From Massiliimalia sp. (GTDB lineage Bacteria > Bacillota > Clostridia > Oscillospirales > Ruminococcaceae): a DNA stretch of 64,000 bases. The position numbers were made by a program, and so were the translations under genes. Shown piece by piece: positions 2,086 to 39,498 of this stretch (the stretch's first letter is position 1; every line of letters begins with the position of its first letter). The notes beneath the pieces are model-generated. The model ran no database searches and was not told where the DNA came from. It saw nothing but the letters and a program-made list of their open reading frames with translations. Location of the stretch: the NCBI GenBank assembly GCA_050943535.1, contig JBMNPJ010000010.1:28916-92915 (forward strand). Direction: 5' to 3'.

Positions 2086-2098
2086 TCAAAAGGATTCT

Positions 2099-2345
2099 CC
2101 AACCACCTGGCGGGCAGTGCCCGCACCCAATGACGCTGCGCTCGCATTCTGCCAGCTGGGTGATAAAAACAAGCGATTTCCACTTTGCCGACAAAGTTTG
2201 AGCCGAAGGCGGGCAGTGCCCGCATCCAATGACGCTGCGCTCGTATTCTGTCAGCTGGGTGATAAAAACAAGCGATTTCCACTTTACTGACAGAGTATGC
2301 GCCGTAGGTGGTTTTCGCCGGTCAGTACCGGACACCGTCCGGAAA
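2099..2345 (+). repeat. Two tandem ~99-bp copies of the palindromic repeat module
   Basis: gacgctgcgctcg at 2132 and 2231; arms ctg(c/t)cag...c(c/t)gaca around a 32-nt loop. Confidence 0.9.
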
Positions 2346-2429
2346 AAATAATTGAGATGATTACAAGGGACGCTGCAAGCCGTTTTTATGGCGGCGTCCC
2401 TTGTTCGATTTACAGAAAGGCGGGTGCTT

Positions 2430-4400
2430 ATGATGAAGCAACTTTCTCCCCGACAGATTCATTTGGATTTTCATACCTCCGAACACATTCCTCACATTGG
2501 GTCTGATTTTGACCCAAAAGCTTTTGCAAAAACAGCCAAAGAAGCATATATCAGCTCCATGACCGTGTTTGCCCGGTGCCATCACGGCTGGCTTTATTAT
2601 CCTTCCAAAAAATTTCCGGATCGGATCCATCCCAATCTGGAATATCCTAATCTCTTATTAGATCAGGTGCGGGCGCTCCATGCAGAAGGGATCAAAGCGC
2701 CGGTTTATATTACAGTGCAGTGGGATTATCACACAGCCACCACCCATCCGGAATGGCTGATTCGCAAACGGGATGGTTCCCATGAAGGCGGCCCGTTTAC
2801 CGAACCAGGATTTTATCAGTCTTTGTGTGTCAACACCGGCTACTGGGAGTTTCTCAAAGAACAGACCGCGGAGGTCTGTGAAATGCTGGGCGACGAATTG
2901 GACGGCATCTTTTTTGACATTGTAGGAATTCGCCCCTGCCTGTGTGCTTCCTGCCGGGCAGAGATGAAACAGCGGGGCATGGATCCAGGCGATGACCGTC
3001 AGGTACGGGAATTTGCCGTGATGGTGATGAACCGGTTTAAGGAAAATATGACCGCTTTGGTGCGGCAGTACAACAAGGACTGTACCATTTTTTACAATGC
3101 CGGTCATGTAGGCCCCTGCACCAAAGAAAGCCGGGAAGCCTACACTCATTTTGAACTGGAAAGCCTGCCTTCCGGTGCGTGGGGATATCTTCATTTTCCG
3201 GTGACTGCCCGCTATGCCAGAACCCTGGGAAAAGACTGTATGGGTATGACCGGAAAATTCCATACTGAATGGGGAGATTTCCACAGCTTAAAAAATCAGG
3301 CGGCGCTGGAGTTCGAGTGTTTCCGCATGCTCAGTTTTGGGTTTGCCAGTTCCATCGGCGATCAGCTGGAACCCTTTGGCCGGCTGAATCCTGCCGCGTA
3401 CCGACTGATTGGCAGGGTATACCAGCAGTTTGCTGAGCGGGAAGAATGGGCACGTCCCTCCACTCCGCTGGTAGAGGCGGCAGTAGTAACGCCGGAATCT
3501 CCGCTTTATGAACAGCAGATCCCGGAAAGCGTTATGGGTGCGGTACAGATGCTGGAAGAACTGGCAGTGCAGTTTGATGTGATCGATCCCCAGATGGATT
3601 TAGAACGGTATCCACTGATTATTCTCCCGGATGATTTGGTAGTAGACCATGAATTCCAGCAAAAACTGGAACAGTATGTATCCCGAGGCGGTCGGGTAAT
3701 CGCCTGTGCCAAAGGGGGACAGAATGAACAGGGAGAATATCCTGCCTGCTTTGGTGCCAAGTCCATGGGTGCTCAGCCAGTTTATCCGGACTTTATTGTT
3801 GCTGAGGGAGAACTGGCACAGGGCTTGGAACCGGACAATGAATATGTCATCTATCTTCAGGGAGAAAAACTGGAGCTTTCAGGAGGAGAAGTCCTGCTGT
3901 CTGCCCGGGCGCCTTATTTTAAACGGGAAAAAGACTGGTTCTGTTCTCATCGGTATACTCCGTCCGCCAAAGGAGAACGCTATCCTGCCGCTGTGCGCAA
4001 TGGAAATATCATTGTGTTTGGTCACCGGATTTTCGAACAGTACCGGGCAAACGCACCGTTCTGGTGTAAAAAGCTGATGGAAAACGCCGTCAATCTGCTT
4101 TTGTCCAATCGGTTGGTGACCCACAACGGACCATCTACCATGACGGTGAGCCTATTGGCACAGCCGGAAAAAGAGCGGGTAAATATTCATCTGCTGTCCT
4201 ATATTCCGGTTCGGAAAAGCGCTACCATCGACCTGATTGAAGAGCGTACGGTGTTGAGAAATGTTACCCTGAAACTGAATCTGCCGGAAGGATTTTCTTC
4301 TGCCCGGCTGGTACCGGAAAACCGGGTGATTCCAGTAGAGGGAAATACCATTACCCTTGAAGAAATCAACGGTTATGCCATTGTAGAATTGACCAAATAA
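2430..4400 (+). CDS. Putative glycoside hydrolase, GHL6-like TIM barrel with C-terminal beta-galactosidase trimerisation-like domain
   Basis: N-terminal QIHLDFHTSEHIP..VFARCHHGWLYYPS and ELESLPSGAWGY typical of this uncharacterised family; RBS gaaagg supports ATG 2430 rather than 2388. Confidence 0.65.
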   Translation: MMKQLSPRQIHLDFHTSEHIPHIGSDFDPKAFAKTAKEAYISSMTVFARCHHGWLYYPSKKFPDRIHPNLEYPNLLLDQVRALHAEGIKAPVYITVQWDYHTATTHPEWLIRKRDGSHEGGPFTEPGFYQSLCVNTGYWEFLKEQTAEVCEMLGDELDGIFFDIVGIRPCLCASCRAEMKQRGMDPGDDRQVREFAVMVMNRFKENMTALVRQYNKDCTIFYNAGHVGPCTKESREAYTHFELESLPSGAWGYLHFPVTARYARTLGKDCMGMTGKFHTEWGDFHSLKNQAALEFECFRMLSFGFASSIGDQLEPFGRLNPAAYRLIGRVYQQFAEREEWARPSTPLVEAAVVTPESPLYEQQIPESVMGAVQMLEELAVQFDVIDPQMDLERYPLIILPDDLVVDHEFQQKLEQYVSRGGRVIACAKGGQNEQGEYPACFGAKSMGAQPVYPDFIVAEGELAQGLEPDNEYVIYLQGEKLELSGGEVLLSARAPYFKREKDWFCSHRYTPSAKGERYPAAVRNGNIIVFGHRIFEQYRANAPFWCKKLMENAVNLLLSNRLVTHNGPSTMTVSLLAQPEKERVNIHLLSYIPVRKSATIDLIEERTVLRNVTLKLNLPEGFSSARLVPENRVIPVEGNTITLEEINGYAIVELTK

Positions 4401-4401
4401 A

Positions 4402-4432
4402 AGCAGTCTGTATTTGGGGGAAAGACGGTTTT
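4402..4432 (+). terminator. Intrinsic terminator after the glycosidase gene
   Basis: aagcagtct/agacggttt stem followed by a T run. Confidence 0.5.
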
Positions 4433-4444
4433 TATGGGGTGCCC

Positions 4445-4474
4445 TTGACAAAAAGGACTTGTTTGGTGTACAAT
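4445..4474 (+). promoter_or_regulatory. sigmaA promoter TTGACA-N18-TACAAT with no downstream + strand CDS
   Basis: Near-consensus -35 (4445-4450) and -10 (4469-4474). Confidence 0.7.
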
Positions 4475-4480
4475 GAACTT

Positions 4481-4607
4481 ATCATAAAACTCTCAAGAGG
4501 GATGACCATCCCGGGCGTCTGTGGACGCTGAGACCCAAGTGATGACTTGTTTGTGAGACAGACCGCAGCGGCCGGAGCAATTCGGCGGATGCGGTCTGTC
4601 TTTTTTA
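4481..4607 (+). ncRNA. Candidate structured small RNA (~127 nt), family not recognised
   Basis: Own promoter, three internal hairpins, 12-bp terminator stem (4556-4567/4590-4601) plus T tract; no ORF with a usable RBS. Confidence 0.6.
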
Positions 4608-4608
4608 T

Positions 4609-4650
4609 AAAAAAATCTCCCCCGGAAGCCTAAAGGACTTCAGGGGGAGA
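4609..4650 (-). terminator. Intrinsic terminator of the kinase/nucleotidyltransferase operon
   Basis: tctccccc/gggggaga stem followed by T7 on the minus strand. Confidence 0.7.
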
Positions 4651-4672
4651 AGGCAAAAACAGGTAAGTGAAA

Positions 4673-5773
4673 TTAACGGTATTTTGCCACAATGGCTTTC
4701 ATTTCATCCCAGTGGCGTTCCATATCAGCAACCAATTTGAACTGGGTGCGGGTACGGTCTAAATTATGGCCTGGACGGGATACTTTAAAGTAGGTGTCCC
4801 CTTCCAGATAGTCGGTCAAAAACCGGATGCCGCATTCCAGGGTCATCATTTTGGCGCCCATAGGCAGCATGTCCAGTTCGGTTTCGGTCAGGCTTCCGTT
4901 ACAGCCAGCCAAAAATCCTTTGGTATACAGTTCAAACAGTTCTAAGCTCAGCCATACTTTGGATAAATCCGGTTCGTCTTCGGCTCCGGTGCTGGCGCCG
5001 AAACGGATAGAGTCTCCAAAGTCGGTGACAGAAAATCCAGGCATGACAGTATCCAGGTCGATGACACAGATGGCTTTTTTTGTCTGATTGTCAATCATAA
5101 TGTTGTTGAGCTTGGTGTCATTGTGGGTTACCCGCAAAGGCAGTTTTCCTTCTTTGAGCAGATCCAGCAGTACATGGGTGTCTTTTTCCCGGGCAAGAGC
5201 AAAGTTAATTTCTTCCTGTACTTCCTTGGCACGTCCCATGGTGTCGGCTTGTACTGCTTCTTTCAGCCGCTGAAGCCGTTTTGGGGTGTTGTGGAAGTCT
5301 ACAATGGTTTCGTGAAGGGTTTCAGCAGGGTAGTCTGCCAGCAGCCGCTGGAAGTGGCCAAATGCCACAGCAGTTTCATAGAAATCTTCCGGAGATTCTA
5401 CCTGGTCATAGGTAGCTGCTCCTTCAATAAACTGGTAAACCCGCCAGTAACCGTCCTGATCGTGGCAGTAGCAGCCGGAATCTTTGGTGGGAACCAAGTT
5501 CATGGTTTCCCGTTCCGGATCGCCGCCGTTTGCAATAATTTTCTTTCTCAGGAACTGGGTGACCCCTACAATATTTTCCATCAGCTGATCTGGGTGGAGG
5601 AAAATGTTGTGGTTCATTCGCTGGAGAATGTATTTTTTAATGGAGCCGTCTTCCAAAGTGCAGCGGATTAAAAAGGTGTCGTTAATGTGGCCGCTGCCGT
5701 AAGAAGTTCCGTCCAGATAGGTGCCTTCCAGCTGGAACATCTGGGCTTTTTCCTGCAAGTTAAAAGAATTCAT
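4673..5773 (-). CDS. APH-fold sugar kinase, N-acetylhexosamine 1-kinase (NahK)-like
   Basis: GSGHINDTF, RVTHNDTKLNN and CVIDLDT motifs. Confidence 0.75.
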   Translation of the reverse strand: MNSFNLQEKAQMFQLEGTYLDGTSYGSGHINDTFLIRCTLEDGSIKKYILQRMNHNIFLHPDQLMENIVGVTQFLRKKIIANGGDPERETMNLVPTKDSGCYCHDQDGYWRVYQFIEGAATYDQVESPEDFYETAVAFGHFQRLLADYPAETLHETIVDFHNTPKRLQRLKEAVQADTMGRAKEVQEEINFALAREKDTHVLLDLLKEGKLPLRVTHNDTKLNNIMIDNQTKKAICVIDLDTVMPGFSVTDFGDSIRFGASTGAEDEPDLSKVWLSLELFELYTKGFLAGCNGSLTETELDMLPMGAKMMTLECGIRFLTDYLEGDTYFKVSRPGHNLDRTRTQFKLVADMERHWDEMKAIVAKYR

Positions 5774-5791
5774 GGTATGGGGTCTCCTTTC

Positions 5792-6712
5792 TCAGTTCCA
5801 AAAATGGGTGGGGTAAACGCCGTCGTCTTTTAATTTCTGGATTGCTTGTTCTACTTTTTCTTTATCTTCCCGGTAGGTGACGCCGTACCATTTATCCTGG
5901 GATTTCAGTACATGAACATCTGCTTTTCCTTCGGCAATTAAATCGCCTACTACTGTGGGCAGGAAGTATTCGCATTTAATTGGGTTAACCGGCAGATTTT
6001 TCTCTAAAAATGCGGCAAACCGCTGGTTGAGCTGGGTCAGAATGCTTTCTGTGAATCCCCACATATTCATGGAAACAATGCTGCCTTCCGGAATGGTAAC
6101 CCAGGTTTTGCCGTCGTCTTCGGTATACTGGGCGCCTTCTGGGTGCTTTTCAATGCGGGTGCGTTCGTGGATGCCGGTGAGCATGTGGTTTTCGTCTACT
6201 TCACAGATTCCTCGTGCAACATGACCGTTTTCGGTGAGGGTGTTTTCCAGAATATAGCCTACCATGGTATAGTGGAATTTTTCGTCATCCTGAGCTTTGA
6301 TCAGGTAGTTGTAAATTTCCTGGAATGCGGTAGGACCGTAGTAGTCGTCTGCATTAATGACTGCAAACGGTGCGTTGACAGTACCCAGACAGCTTAAAAT
6401 AGCATGACCGGTGCCCCATGGTTTGGTTCTGCCTTCTGGAACAGAAAAACCTTCTGGCAGGGAATCTACTTCCTGGAATACATAGGAAACATCTGCAACC
6501 TTTTCCATCCGTTTGCCGATTCGTTCTTTAAAATCGTCTTCGATCTGATGTTTGATAATAAATACAATCTTTTTAAATCCTGCTTTGACTGCATCGTAAA
6601 TAGAAAAATCGATAATCAGGTGACCTTCCCGGTCAACTGGGTCAATTTGTTTTAAGCCGCCGTATCGGCTTCCCATACCTGCTGCCATAATGACTAATAC
6701 TGGTTCTTTCAT
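5792..6712 (-). CDS. Sugar-phosphate nucleotidyltransferase
   Basis: MAAGMGSRYGGLKQ, KPWGTGHA and VINADDYYG motifs. Confidence 0.85.
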   Translation of the reverse strand: MKEPVLVIMAAGMGSRYGGLKQIDPVDREGHLIIDFSIYDAVKAGFKKIVFIIKHQIEDDFKERIGKRMEKVADVSYVFQEVDSLPEGFSVPEGRTKPWGTGHAILSCLGTVNAPFAVINADDYYGPTAFQEIYNYLIKAQDDEKFHYTMVGYILENTLTENGHVARGICEVDENHMLTGIHERTRIEKHPEGAQYTEDDGKTWVTIPEGSIVSMNMWGFTESILTQLNQRFAAFLEKNLPVNPIKCEYFLPTVVGDLIAEGKADVHVLKSQDKWYGVTYREDKEKVEQAIQKLKDDGVYPTHFWN

Positions 6713-6884
6713 CGTAAATCCGCTCCTTTATGTGGGGACTCCTTGGTCCCATCGGGGTTTGTTCCGCTGTTTGTTCATCTGTCTTGATTATAGCTGGAAC
6801 GCAGGGGGAAATCTCTGCAAAATCGTCTTAGAATTAGTAATTTTGTATGATTTTTTATAAATTTACTCTTTAGGAGGAAAGTTG

Positions 6885-7715
6885 ATGAAACAGGCAATAC
6901 AGCTGATTGATATTTTAAAGGAACTTCATAATATTTCCGGGTTTCGCATATCCATTTACGATATTCACCGAAATCAGATTGGGGTGTATCCTCAGGAAGT
7001 AGGACCTTTTTGCCAGTTGGTTCAGCAAAACCCTAAAGCAAAGGAAATCTGCCTGGAAACCGACCGGCAGGCCTTTGAAACCGTGTCCCGCACAGGGGAA
7101 CCCTATGTATACCAGTGTCGGTTCGGGCTGTACGAAGCGGTGGCGCCTCTTTATTATTTTGGAACACCGGCGGGATTTTTAATGATGGGGCAGGCGGCAG
7201 ATACTTCCAGCTCCATCAAAGAGCATTTATACCAGATGGCGCTGCCATACTGCGGCAATCAAAAGCAGCAATTGCTGGCAGCAGTGGAGCAGGTGCCGGC
7301 CAGTACCAAAGATAAAATTTTATCCTGTATTACCATTATGAATATTTGTGCAGAATACATTACTTTGGGCAACAGGATGAATTTAACCGGACAGGATTTG
7401 GCACAGGAGACCTTAAAATATCTGCATGAACATTATTCTGAAAATATTGCCATCCCGGATTTGTGCCGCCACTTTTTCTGCAGCAAAGCGACTTTGTCCG
7501 GGGCGTTTAAGCACACCTACGGCAAAACCATTCACCAGTGTCTGGTGCAGATTCGGCTGCAGCGGGCGCGGGAGCTTTTGGACGACAGCCGCAACAGCGT
7601 GCGGGCAGTGGCGGAACGGTGCGGTTTTTCTGACCAAAATTATTTTTCCAAGGCGTTTTTTCGGGAATTTCATATGACGCCCACCCAGTACCGGAATCAT
7701 CGTCCCAATCCATAA
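6885..7715 (+). CDS. AraC-family regulator with PocR-type sensor domain
   Basis: N-terminal FCQLV..C...D and YQCRFGLYEAVAP; C-terminal AERCGFSDQNYFSKAF HTH; RBS aggagg. Confidence 0.85.
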   Translation: MKQAIQLIDILKELHNISGFRISIYDIHRNQIGVYPQEVGPFCQLVQQNPKAKEICLETDRQAFETVSRTGEPYVYQCRFGLYEAVAPLYYFGTPAGFLMMGQAADTSSSIKEHLYQMALPYCGNQKQQLLAAVEQVPASTKDKILSCITIMNICAEYITLGNRMNLTGQDLAQETLKYLHEHYSENIAIPDLCRHFFCSKATLSGAFKHTYGKTIHQCLVQIRLQRARELLDDSRNSVRAVAERCGFSDQNYFSKAFFREFHMTPTQYRNHRPNP

Positions 7716-23248: not shown

Positions 23249-23286
23249 AAAGGGTCTGTCTCAATTCCTTTTGAGACAGACCCTTT
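23249..23286. terminator. Strong bidirectional terminator hairpin
   Basis: aaagggtctgtctcaa/ttgagacagacccttt. Confidence 0.8.
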
Positions 23287-39158: not shown

Positions 39159-39498
39159 TTGCAAAAGCCGGGGTGGTATGGTATTATAATTCTTGCGTGA
39201 CTGCAACAGATATGCGATGAAGCGGAAGGTTGCCGCAAAGAAATTTGCGGGTTTTTTCGTGGAGTATGTCCGATTTTAAACCGGGCGACCAATTTTGAAC
39301 ATTTTCCTATGGCCAGCAATATCCCGGCGATTTGCGCCGATGTGATTGCCATAACGTTATAGGAGTTTGCCTGCCCCGGAAAAACAGTATTGTTTTTTCG
39401 GTATTTTTATCGAGTGAGGATGAAACGCACGGCAACGTGTTTGAATTTTGCGTCTAACCCCCATTAATTTTTATGAATGCTTTAAGGAGGCGACGACA
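39159..39498 (+). promoter_or_regulatory. S10 operon promoter (TTGCAA at 39159; TATTAT/TATAAT at 39182-39190) and ~300-nt structured leader
   Basis: Hairpin plus U tract at 39233-39257; nested stems at 39305-39364. Confidence 0.6.

What the first reader, a model, noticed from the sequence alone, without database searches (positions are those of the whole stretch)
4445..4607. Free-standing structured RNA with its own promoter and terminator, pointing at a convergent operon
Seen: after the upstream gene's terminator there is TTGACA-N18-TACAAT, then hairpins gggat/atccc (4499-4512), ggg-cgtc/gacg-ctgaga-ccc (4513-4536) and caagt/acttg (4536-4549). A closing pair tctca (4491-4495)/tgaga (4554-4558) would give a four-way junction. 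A 12-bp terminator with T tract follows (4556-4606), and the closing helix overlaps its 5' strand, so the two are mutually exclusive, as in a riboswitch. No + strand gene follows; read-through would run antisense into the NahK-like kinase. It did not match the riboswitch, 6S, SRP or ribozyme consensuses I know. Inference: an undescribed sRNA or a switch-controlled antisense RNA.
Basis: partly seen in the sequence, partly recalled or inferred. Interest (0 to 1): 0.66.

Follow-up and report, generated by a model that had tools for sequence, protein, structure and literature searches.

The report
Conserved stand-alone small RNA gene
This is probably a real ~126-nt non-coding RNA gene with its own promoter and terminator, kept nearly unchanged in two related gut and bioreactor Clostridia, but it looks like an ordinary narrow-range bacterial small RNA and not a riboswitch.

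Summary

A sister species (L082/L088) has 84-92% identical neighbouring proteins but only 46% identity at four-fold degenerate sites. It keeps exactly the block from 2 nt before the -35 to the T-tract, at 87% identity. The DNA on both sides cannot be aligned, and the upstream gene is a different one.

Of the 15 substitutions inside the RNA, none breaks any of 45 predicted pairs. Two are compensatory double changes and three are A-U/G-U switches. The G-U pairs work only on the + strand.

The structure supported is P1 enclosing P2 (with hairpins P2a and P2b) and P3, followed by the terminator. The "switch" is not supported: forcing the proposed closing helix costs 5.5 kcal/mol and leaves the terminator hairpin standing, and no gene lies downstream on the + strand.

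No Rfam family matches, there is no conserved ORF, and no homologue turned up beyond these two species. Expression could not be tested.

Best reading: a new, genus-restricted, independently transcribed small RNA, probably trans-acting, with unknown targets.

The parts
4445..4450 (+). -35 hexamer TTGACA
   Evidence: Found by the consensus scan. Identical in the sister species, and the conserved block begins only 2 nt upstream of it.
4469..4474 (+). -10 hexamer TACAAT, 18-nt spacer
   Evidence: The sister species has TAAAAT at the same 18-nt spacing.
4481..4606 (+). Predicted transcript of about 126 nt. The start at A4481 is inferred from the position of the -10; the 3' end is the T-tract.
   Evidence: Start and end are inferred from the promoter and terminator. 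Covariance model R1 finds this unit only here, in L081 (same species) and in L082/L088 (sister species). Both species fold independently into the same architecture.
4483..4488 (+). P1 5' strand CAUAAA, pairs with 4550-4555
   Evidence: A4488-U4550 becomes G-U in the sister species.
4491..4494 (+). P2 5' strand UCUC, pairs with GAGA 4530-4533. Alternative partner: GAGA 4555-4558.
   Evidence: The pairs are invariant, so the choice between the two partners is not settled.
4499..4512 (+). Hairpin P2a: GGGAU-GACC-AUCCC
   Evidence: The outer pair G4499-C4512 becomes U-A (compensatory). The loop GACC becomes GAAA.
4514..4529 (+). Hairpin P2b: GGCGUC-UGUG-GACGCU
   Evidence: G4515-C4528 becomes A-U (compensatory). 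G4514-U4529 becomes A-U. The loop UGUG becomes UCCG.
4530..4533 (+). P2 3' strand GAGA
4536..4549 (+). Hairpin P3: CAAGU-GAUG-ACUUG. Invariant, including the loop.
4550..4555 (+). P1 3' strand UUUGUG
4555..4602 (+). Terminator hairpin (13+1+6 bp, with conserved G.A and G.G mismatches at 4568/4589 and 4570/4587)
   Evidence: -35.7 kcal/mol, z=-7.6. The stem is identical in the sister species except A4556 to G, which still pairs with U4601. The loop differs by a 2-nt indel and 2 substitutions.
4601..4606 (+). T-tract (U6). The conserved block ends here.

Best explanation
Window 4445-4606 (+) is a self-contained gene for a non-coding RNA of about 126 nt.

How it is made (inferred): a near-consensus sigma-A-type promoter starts transcription near A4481, and a very stable intrinsic terminator ends it at the U-tract at 4601-4606.

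Shape: the RNA has two parts.
- The 5' domain (4483-4555) has P1 closing a junction that carries P2, which itself carries hairpins P2a and P2b, and hairpin P3. Its shape is conserved while its loops and some stem letters change.
- The 3' half (4529-4606) comprises P3, the UUUGUG linker and the terminator hairpin. It is almost invariant in sequence.

Function (inferred, not shown): the RNA most likely acts in trans as a regulatory small RNA, through base-pairing or protein binding that involves the invariant 3' half. It does not act in cis on a neighbouring gene. Because the upstream genes have weak or T-less terminators, its terminator probably also stops transcription coming from upstream.

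Shown here: conservation, base-pair support, strand, and absence of a coding frame.
Inferred: transcription itself, the exact ends, trans action, and targets.
For: 1. The promoter matches 11 of 12 consensus positions. Sites of this quality are about 7-fold enriched over shuffles in the window.
2. A sister species (L082/L088) keeps the block from CC-TTGACA to the T-tract at 87% identity over 160 aligned nt with three small indels. Neighbouring coding DNA is 73-81% identical, four-fold degenerate sites are 46% identical, and both flanks cannot be aligned. The binomial P for 139 of 160 identical at neutral p=0.46 is about 1e-26.
3. The unit stays in place although the upstream gene differs: GHL6 glycosidase in the window, FGGY xylulokinase in the sister species.
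4. Of 15 substitutions in the RNA, 8 fall in the 28 unpaired columns and 7 in the 90 paired columns, and no pair is broken. Random placement of 15 substitutions never gave 0 broken pairs in 100,000 trials. Seven substitutions placed at random in paired columns gave 0 broken pairs in 1e-5 of trials. Two changes are compensatory double changes and three are A-U/G-U switches.
5. The tested structure is also the minimum-free-energy fold of each species taken alone.
6. The G-U pairs would be C.A mismatches on the other strand, which fixes the + strand.
7. No ORF is conserved. The 9-codon frame ATGACC..TGA differs at 4 of 9 residues, all non-synonymous, and the longer frames are broken by indels.
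8. No Rfam family scores better than E=1.3 and there is no tRNA or tmRNA.
Against: - There is no expression evidence. No RNA run holds the stretch. The metatranscriptomes that contain this organism cover the first 20 kb of the window with only four short contigs, so they say nothing either way.
- Only two species carry the unit, so covariation rests on a single pairwise comparison and cannot be assessed with R-scape-type statistics. The shuffle control has no power with two sequences (118 of 500).
- The 5' domain does not fold better than shuffled sequence.
- No target or seed emerged. Duplex scans against translation-initiation regions in the window gave nothing above background, and the neighbouring genes rank in the middle.
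- Conservation of the promoter-like hexamers could in principle serve another purpose.
Confidence: 0.6

Rival explanations
1. A switch-controlled (riboswitch-like) element. The 5' domain binds a ligand and decides between termination at 4606 and read-through, and read-through would produce an antisense RNA against the hexosamine-kinase operon.
For: The geometry fits: the unit points at the convergent kinase, which lies 66 nt downstream. UCUC 4491-94 can pair with either GAGA 4530-33 or GAGA 4555-58, and both pairings survive in the sister species. GUCUGU 4517-22 is complementary to the terminator's 5' strand ACAGAC 4558-63.
Against: - Enforcing the closing helix costs 5.5 kcal/mol and leaves a 16-bp terminator hairpin.
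- The GUCUGU/ACAGAC pairing loses 2 of 6 pairs in the sister species, where the loop UGUG becomes UCCG.
- The ggg/ccc helix needed for the four-way junction is broken.
- Junction nucleotides vary and include an indel.
- No known aptamer class matches.
- The DNA beyond the T-tract is not conserved.
- The most conserved part is the terminator half, not the putative sensor.
Confidence: 0.07
2. A structured RNA that works by binding a protein (a sponge, scaffold or processing substrate) and not by base-pairing. The invariant 20-bp hairpin with its two conserved mismatches would be the recognition element.
For: Both strands of the long hairpin, its G.A and G.G mismatches, P3 and its loop are unchanged, while neutral sites are only 46% identical. 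Pure structural constraint would allow compensatory changes, as seen in P2a and P2b. GGAUG occurs twice, at 4500-04 and 4587-91. No base-pairing target was found.
Against: No partner protein gene is linked to it. The neighbours are sugar-metabolism genes and an AraC/PocR regulator. Conserved terminator hairpins are also common in ordinary base-pairing sRNAs. One pairwise comparison cannot tell 'no time for double mutants' from sequence-specific recognition.
Confidence: 0.2
3. Not an independent gene. The block is the shared 3' UTR and terminator of whichever gene lies upstream, and the promoter-like hexamers are incidental.
For: The hairpin after the upstream gene is weak in the window (-9.3 kcal/mol, z=-0.31). 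In the sister species it is strong but lacks a T-tract. Upstream transcripts therefore probably do end at 4606.
Against: Conservation starts exactly at the -35 hexamer and not at the upstream stop codon. Both hexamers and the 18-nt spacing are kept. The upstream gene differs between the two species while the block does not. A terminator alone does not need a conserved 75-nt structured domain with compensatory changes in front of it.
Confidence: 0.1
4. A DNA-level element, such as a protein-binding palindrome or a recombination site, and not an RNA.
For: There is a long, nearly perfect, sequence-invariant palindrome at 4555-4602.
Against: G-U pairs and A-U/G-U switches make sense only in + strand RNA. 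There is no other copy in the window or in the fetched loci. There is no match in the phage or plasmid collections, and no mobile-element genes lie nearby.
Confidence: 0.03

Closest known systems
Trans-encoded, intergenic bacterial small regulatory RNAs of Firmicutes (the generic kind; for example RoxS/RsaE or SR1 of Bacillus, cited from general knowledge)
   Same: Intergenic location. Own sigma-A-type promoter. Intrinsic terminator as the 3' module. Length of 100-200 nt. Non-coding. Narrow phylogenetic range. Stem-loops kept through compensatory changes.
   Different: No sequence or model similarity to any described family. No C-rich unpaired seed was identified: only two unpaired C residues, conserved, lie between P2 and P3. 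No target, chaperone or regulator is known. Expression has not been shown.
Transcription-terminating riboswitches
   Same: A structured multi-helix domain is followed directly by an intrinsic terminator. One short segment (UCUC) has two possible partners.
   Different: No gene lies downstream on the same strand. The competitor helices are too weak or are not conserved. The junction nucleotides vary. No Rfam aptamer class matches.
BTnc201 (RF04177) and NsiR1 / L10 leader: the best Rfam 'evalue' matches
   Same: Only a generic long hairpin followed by a U-tract.
   Different: Scores are 14.5-16.8 bits against gathering thresholds of 39-105, at E=1.3-5.4. Two of the three lie on the other strand, over the kinase's own terminator. 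These are chance matches.

Membership tests
Any Rfam 15 family (4227 models) | Score at or above the family's gathering threshold | tested here: not met
   The only gathering-level hit in the window is the S10-Clostridia leader at 39209-39291. In 4380-4680 the best match is 16.8 bits at E=1.3, against gathering thresholds of 39-105.
Riboswitch (transcription-terminating) | Conserved ligand-binding core, with invariant junction nucleotides | tested here: not met
   The P2/P2a junction AAGAG becomes AA-UU. Loops vary. The most conserved part is the terminator half.
Riboswitch (transcription-terminating) | Mutually exclusive terminator and anti-terminator | tested here: not met
   The enforced closing helix costs +5.5 kcal/mol and the terminator hairpin still forms. 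The alternative GUCUGU/ACAGAC pairing is not conserved.
Riboswitch (transcription-terminating) | Regulated gene downstream on the same strand | tested here: not met
   No + strand ORF of 40 aa or more starts after 4606 before the convergent kinase; the small frames are not conserved.
Independent trans-encoded sRNA gene | Own promoter | tested here: met
   11 of 12 consensus positions. The -35, the -10 and the 18-nt spacing are conserved, and the conservation boundary lies at the -35. This is by sequence only; no transcription start site data exist.
Independent trans-encoded sRNA gene | Intrinsic terminator | tested here: met
   -35.7 kcal/mol hairpin followed by U6, conserved.
Independent trans-encoded sRNA gene | Non-coding | tested here: met
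   No frame is conserved. The substitutions preserve pairing, not codons.
Independent trans-encoded sRNA gene | Detectable discrete transcript | tested here: inconclusive
   No RNA run holds the stretch. The metatranscriptomes with this organism are far too shallow here.
Independent trans-encoded sRNA gene | Seed region and mRNA targets | tested here: inconclusive
   Duplex and k-mer scans within the 64-kb window found nothing above background. The rest of the genome is not available.
cis-antisense RNA | Overlap with a gene or UTR on the opposite strand | tested here: not met
   The transcript ends at 4606. The kinase stop codon is at 4673-4675, and the kinase's own terminator lies at 4630-4650, with its U-tract reaching 4609.
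Type I toxin-antitoxin | Small hydrophobic toxin ORF overlapping or adjacent | tested here: not met
   The ORFs of 20 aa or more in 4400-4672 are neither hydrophobic-peptide-like nor frame-conserved.
tRNA-like / tmRNA | Cloverleaf recognised by ARAGORN | tested here: not met
   No gene found in 4300-4800.

The most novel reading that the evidence does not exclude
The unit is the founding member of a new structured non-coding RNA class. Its invariant 3' half (P3, the UUUGUG linker, and a 20-bp hairpin with conserved G.A and G.G mismatches) would be a specific protein- or ligand-recognition module. One possibility is a condition-dependent terminator whose read-through silences the convergent hexosamine-salvage operon. 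On this reading it would not be an ordinary base-pairing sRNA.
Probability: 0.12. Interest if true: 0.65.

Novelty: new member of a known kind. Interest (0 to 1): 0.36.

Why it matters
Small RNAs of uncultured Oscillospirales-type gut and bioreactor Clostridia are essentially uncharted. This candidate has unusually clean comparative support: a complete promoter-to-terminator unit conserved far above the neutral rate, with every substitution compatible with the fold. It sits among sugar-salvage genes.

It is a good candidate for experimental sRNA discovery in this clade and a seed for a new RNA family. It does not bear on any long-standing open question, because narrow-range sRNAs of unknown function are common in bacteria.

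Tried and rejected
- Synteny through the upstream GHL6 glycosidase. In 80 genome loci the downstream region is not conserved, and neither nhmmer nor the covariance model found the RNA.
- Synteny through the kinase. Relatives at 68-72% identity (the nearest named ones are Blautia) have a galE-like epimerase gene after the kinase and no RNA.
- Synteny through the xylulokinase. Relatives at 79% and 74% identity lack the RNA.
- Pattern scans of JGI metagenome contigs, run twice, and of viral contigs. The first metagenome scan and the viral scan found nothing; the second metagenome scan gave one hit (L087), a chance match that the model rejects.
- blastn against the phage and plasmid collections found nothing.
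- Logan runs that hold the stretch are low-coverage fragments of the same species, with only three variable positions (4441, 4475, 4578).
- RNA-seq evidence: none usable.
- Target prediction by duplexfold or exact antisense k-mers was uninformative. The first attempt timed out.
- Considered and dropped, by inspection of the sequence only:
  - A small peptide gene.
  - A C/D-box or K-turn reading of GUGAUGA/CUGA. The motif lies inside the conserved P3 hairpin, and the Rfam snoRNA hit is at E=7.
  - A CsrA sponge. There are only two GGA motifs and both are in stems.
  - A mobile or MITE-like element. There are no terminal repeats and no second copy.

Full report
**What is in the sequence**

Between the stop codon of a 670-aa GHL6-family glycosidase (2388-4400, +) and the stop codon of a convergent APH-family kinase (4673-5773, -; Pfam PF01636) lies a 272-nt spacer. 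The kinase's relatives are annotated as phosphotransferase or 'mucin desulfatase', which fits the NahK-like reading.

On the + strand the spacer holds:
- TTGACA-18-TACAAT at 4445-4474, matching 11 of 12 consensus positions.
- Three short hairpins.
- A very stable hairpin at 4555-4602 (13+1+6 bp, -35.7 kcal/mol, z=-7.6) followed by T6.

On the - strand, back to back with this, is the kinase's own terminator. Its stem spans 4630-4650 (-24.6 kcal/mol) and its U-tract reaches 4609. Promoter matches of this quality occur 9 times in the 64-kb window against 1.2 in shuffles, so most of them are real promoters.

The 5' part of the putative RNA (4481-4560) does not fold better than shuffled sequence (z=-1.39). 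Folding energy alone therefore supports only the terminator.

**Known families**

Rfam 15 gives no hit at gathering thresholds. In a permissive search of 4380-4680, all four matches have E of 1.3 or worse and reflect generic hairpin-plus-U-tract features. ARAGORN finds nothing. There is no second copy in the window and no match in the phage or plasmid collections.

**Comparative evidence**

The glycosidase's synteny is not conserved. In 80 genome loci carrying relatives at 39-79% identity, the downstream DNA is unrelated, and neither nhmmer nor a covariance model finds the element.

The kinase has two close relatives in Logan assemblies. L081 is 99% identical and belongs to the same species. 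L082 is 84% identical. A third contig, L088, was found through the xylulokinase (92% identity). It has the same gene order as L082 and an identical RNA (same model score), so it is taken to be the same sister species.

In that sister species the glycosidase gene is absent. The element sits directly after the FGGY xylulokinase gene and is again convergent with the kinase.

The alignment is striking. Identity begins 2 nt before the -35 hexamer and ends at the T-tract, at 87% over 160 aligned nt with three small indels. Both flanks cannot be aligned. For comparison:
- The neighbouring coding sequences are 73-81% identical at the DNA level.
- Their third codon positions are 50% identical.
- Four-fold degenerate sites are 46% identical.

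The unit is therefore far above the neutral expectation (binomial P about 1e-26). What is conserved is exactly a promoter-to-terminator transcription unit. The -10 varies only between two good versions, TACAAT and TAAAAT, and the 18-nt spacing is kept.

**Structure**

The minimum-free-energy fold of the window sequence alone, the fold of the sister species alone and the RNAalifold consensus all agree:

| Helix | 5' strand | 3' strand |
|---|---|---|
| P1 | 4483-88 | 4550-55 |
| P2 | 4491-94 | 4530-33 |
| P2a | 4499-4503 | 4508-12 |
| P2b | 4514-19 | 4524-29 |
| P3 | 4536-40 | 4545-49 |

P1 closes a junction that carries P2 and P3. P2 carries P2a and P2b. The terminator follows.

The two species differ at 15 aligned positions within the structured part. 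Eight fall in the 28 unpaired columns and seven in the 90 paired columns, and none of the 45 pairs is broken. The changes in paired positions are:
- G4499-C4512 to U-A (compensatory).
- G4515-C4528 to A-U (compensatory).
- G4514-U4529 to A-U.
- A4488-U4550 to G-U.
- A4556-U4601 to G-U.

In 100,000 simulations, 15 randomly placed substitutions never left all pairs intact. Seven substitutions placed at random in paired columns left all pairs intact in 1e-5 of trials.

The wobble pairs would be C.A mismatches on the opposite strand, so the functional molecule is + strand RNA. The built-in shuffle control has no power with two distinct sequences (118 of 500). This evidence is one pairwise comparison, not a phylogenetic covariation test.

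Hairpins 1 and 3, and the core of hairpin 2, are right. The ggg/ccc extension (4513-15/4534-36) loses two of its three pairs in the sister species, so the proposed four-way junction is not supported as drawn.

The closing helix tctca/tgaga (4491-95/4554-58) remains formally possible, because UCUC can pair with either GAGA and both pairings survive. Enforcing it costs 5.5 kcal/mol and still leaves a 16-bp terminator hairpin, so the two are not mutually exclusive.

A second possible competitor is GUCUGU 4517-22 pairing with ACAGAC 4558-63. It loses two of six pairs in the sister species.

Other points against a switch:
- Junction nucleotides vary.
- No gene lies downstream on the + strand.
- The DNA after the T-tract is not conserved.

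The riboswitch-like reading is therefore unlikely.

**Coding potential**

The only frame kept between the species is a 9-codon ATG...TGA frame. Four of its nine residues differ, all by non-synonymous changes that instead preserve base pairs. Longer frames on either strand are disrupted by the indels.

**Pattern of constraint**

The 5' domain up to 4528 is about 73% identical, with its shape conserved. From 4529 to 4606 there is a single substitution plus changes in the terminator loop. The unchanged part includes both strands of the long hairpin and its two mismatches, G4568.A4589 and G4570.G4587. I read this as a sequence-specific role for the 3' half, either as a seed or as a protein-recognition module. 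One comparison cannot separate that from simple lack of time for double mutants.

**Expression and targets**

No RNA run holds the stretch. Metatranscriptomes that do contain this organism's ribosomal-protein operon cover the first 20 kb of the window with only four short contigs and have nothing at 4000-5000. They are uninformative. Scans for complementarity to translation-initiation regions within the window gave nothing above background, and the neighbouring genes rank in the middle of the distribution.

**Distribution**

The element was not found in any of these:
- JGI metagenome contigs. Two pattern scans gave one chance hit, which the model rejects.
- Viral contigs.
- Relatives of the xylulokinase at 79% and 74% identity.
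- Kinase loci at 68-72% identity (nearest named relatives are Blautia), where an epimerase gene follows the kinase.

As far as these tools reach, it is confined to two congeneric species of uncultured Clostridia. The closest glycosidase relatives are labelled Neglectibacter, Ca. Merdivicinus and Bianquea.

**Verdict**

This is a genuine, selectively maintained, + strand structured RNA gene of about 126 nt with its own promoter and terminator. It is a new, genus-restricted small RNA of unknown function, most likely acting in trans. It is not a riboswitch or a cis-antisense switch. The kind is ordinary, the family is new, and the support is good for a computational candidate.

A literature search found no description of it.

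Noticed in passing
window 2109-2306: A tandem direct repeat of 99 nt, two copies at 91% identity, fills most of the spacer between the xylulokinase and the GHL6 glycosidase gene. Its nature is unknown.
   Followed up: partly
window 2086-4444 versus L088 1777-1879: The whole GHL6 glycosidase gene, together with the repeat-bearing spacer upstream of it, is present in the window but absent at the same place in the sister species. This is a gene-cassette insertion or deletion of about 2.3 kb immediately upstream of the RNA promoter.
   Followed up: partly
window about 480-561; L088 about 170-252: The xylulokinase leader has a conserved promoter-like stretch (TTTTGTGCTATACTGAAAA) and a conserved hairpin (TCGTGTTCGAGCACGAAC) ahead of the ribosome-binding site, in an otherwise diverged spacer. 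It may be a regulatory leader or operator. There is no Rfam hit.
   Followed up: no
window 39209-39291 (+): S10-Clostridia ribosomal protein leader (RF03136), 52 bits. This is the only Rfam gathering-level hit in the window.
   Followed up: no
window 23252-23283: The hairpin GGGTCTGTCTCA-N8-TGAGACAGACCC, flanked by an A-run on one side and TTT on the other, has the form of a two-way terminator. Its stem shares the 11-mer TGAGACAGACC with the base of the RNA's terminator, probably by chance.
   Followed up: partly
window 4673-6712 (-) versus L083, L084: The NTP-transferase and APH-kinase operon ends after the kinase here. In relatives at 68-72% identity a GalE-like epimerase gene follows in the same operon. 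A divergent PocR/AraC regulator gene (6882-7715) is conserved next to the operon.
   Followed up: no
window 4398-4434: The hairpin after the glycosidase gene is weak, so its transcript probably runs on to the RNA's terminator. In the sister species the xylulokinase is followed by a strong 15-bp hairpin without a T-tract.
   Followed up: partly
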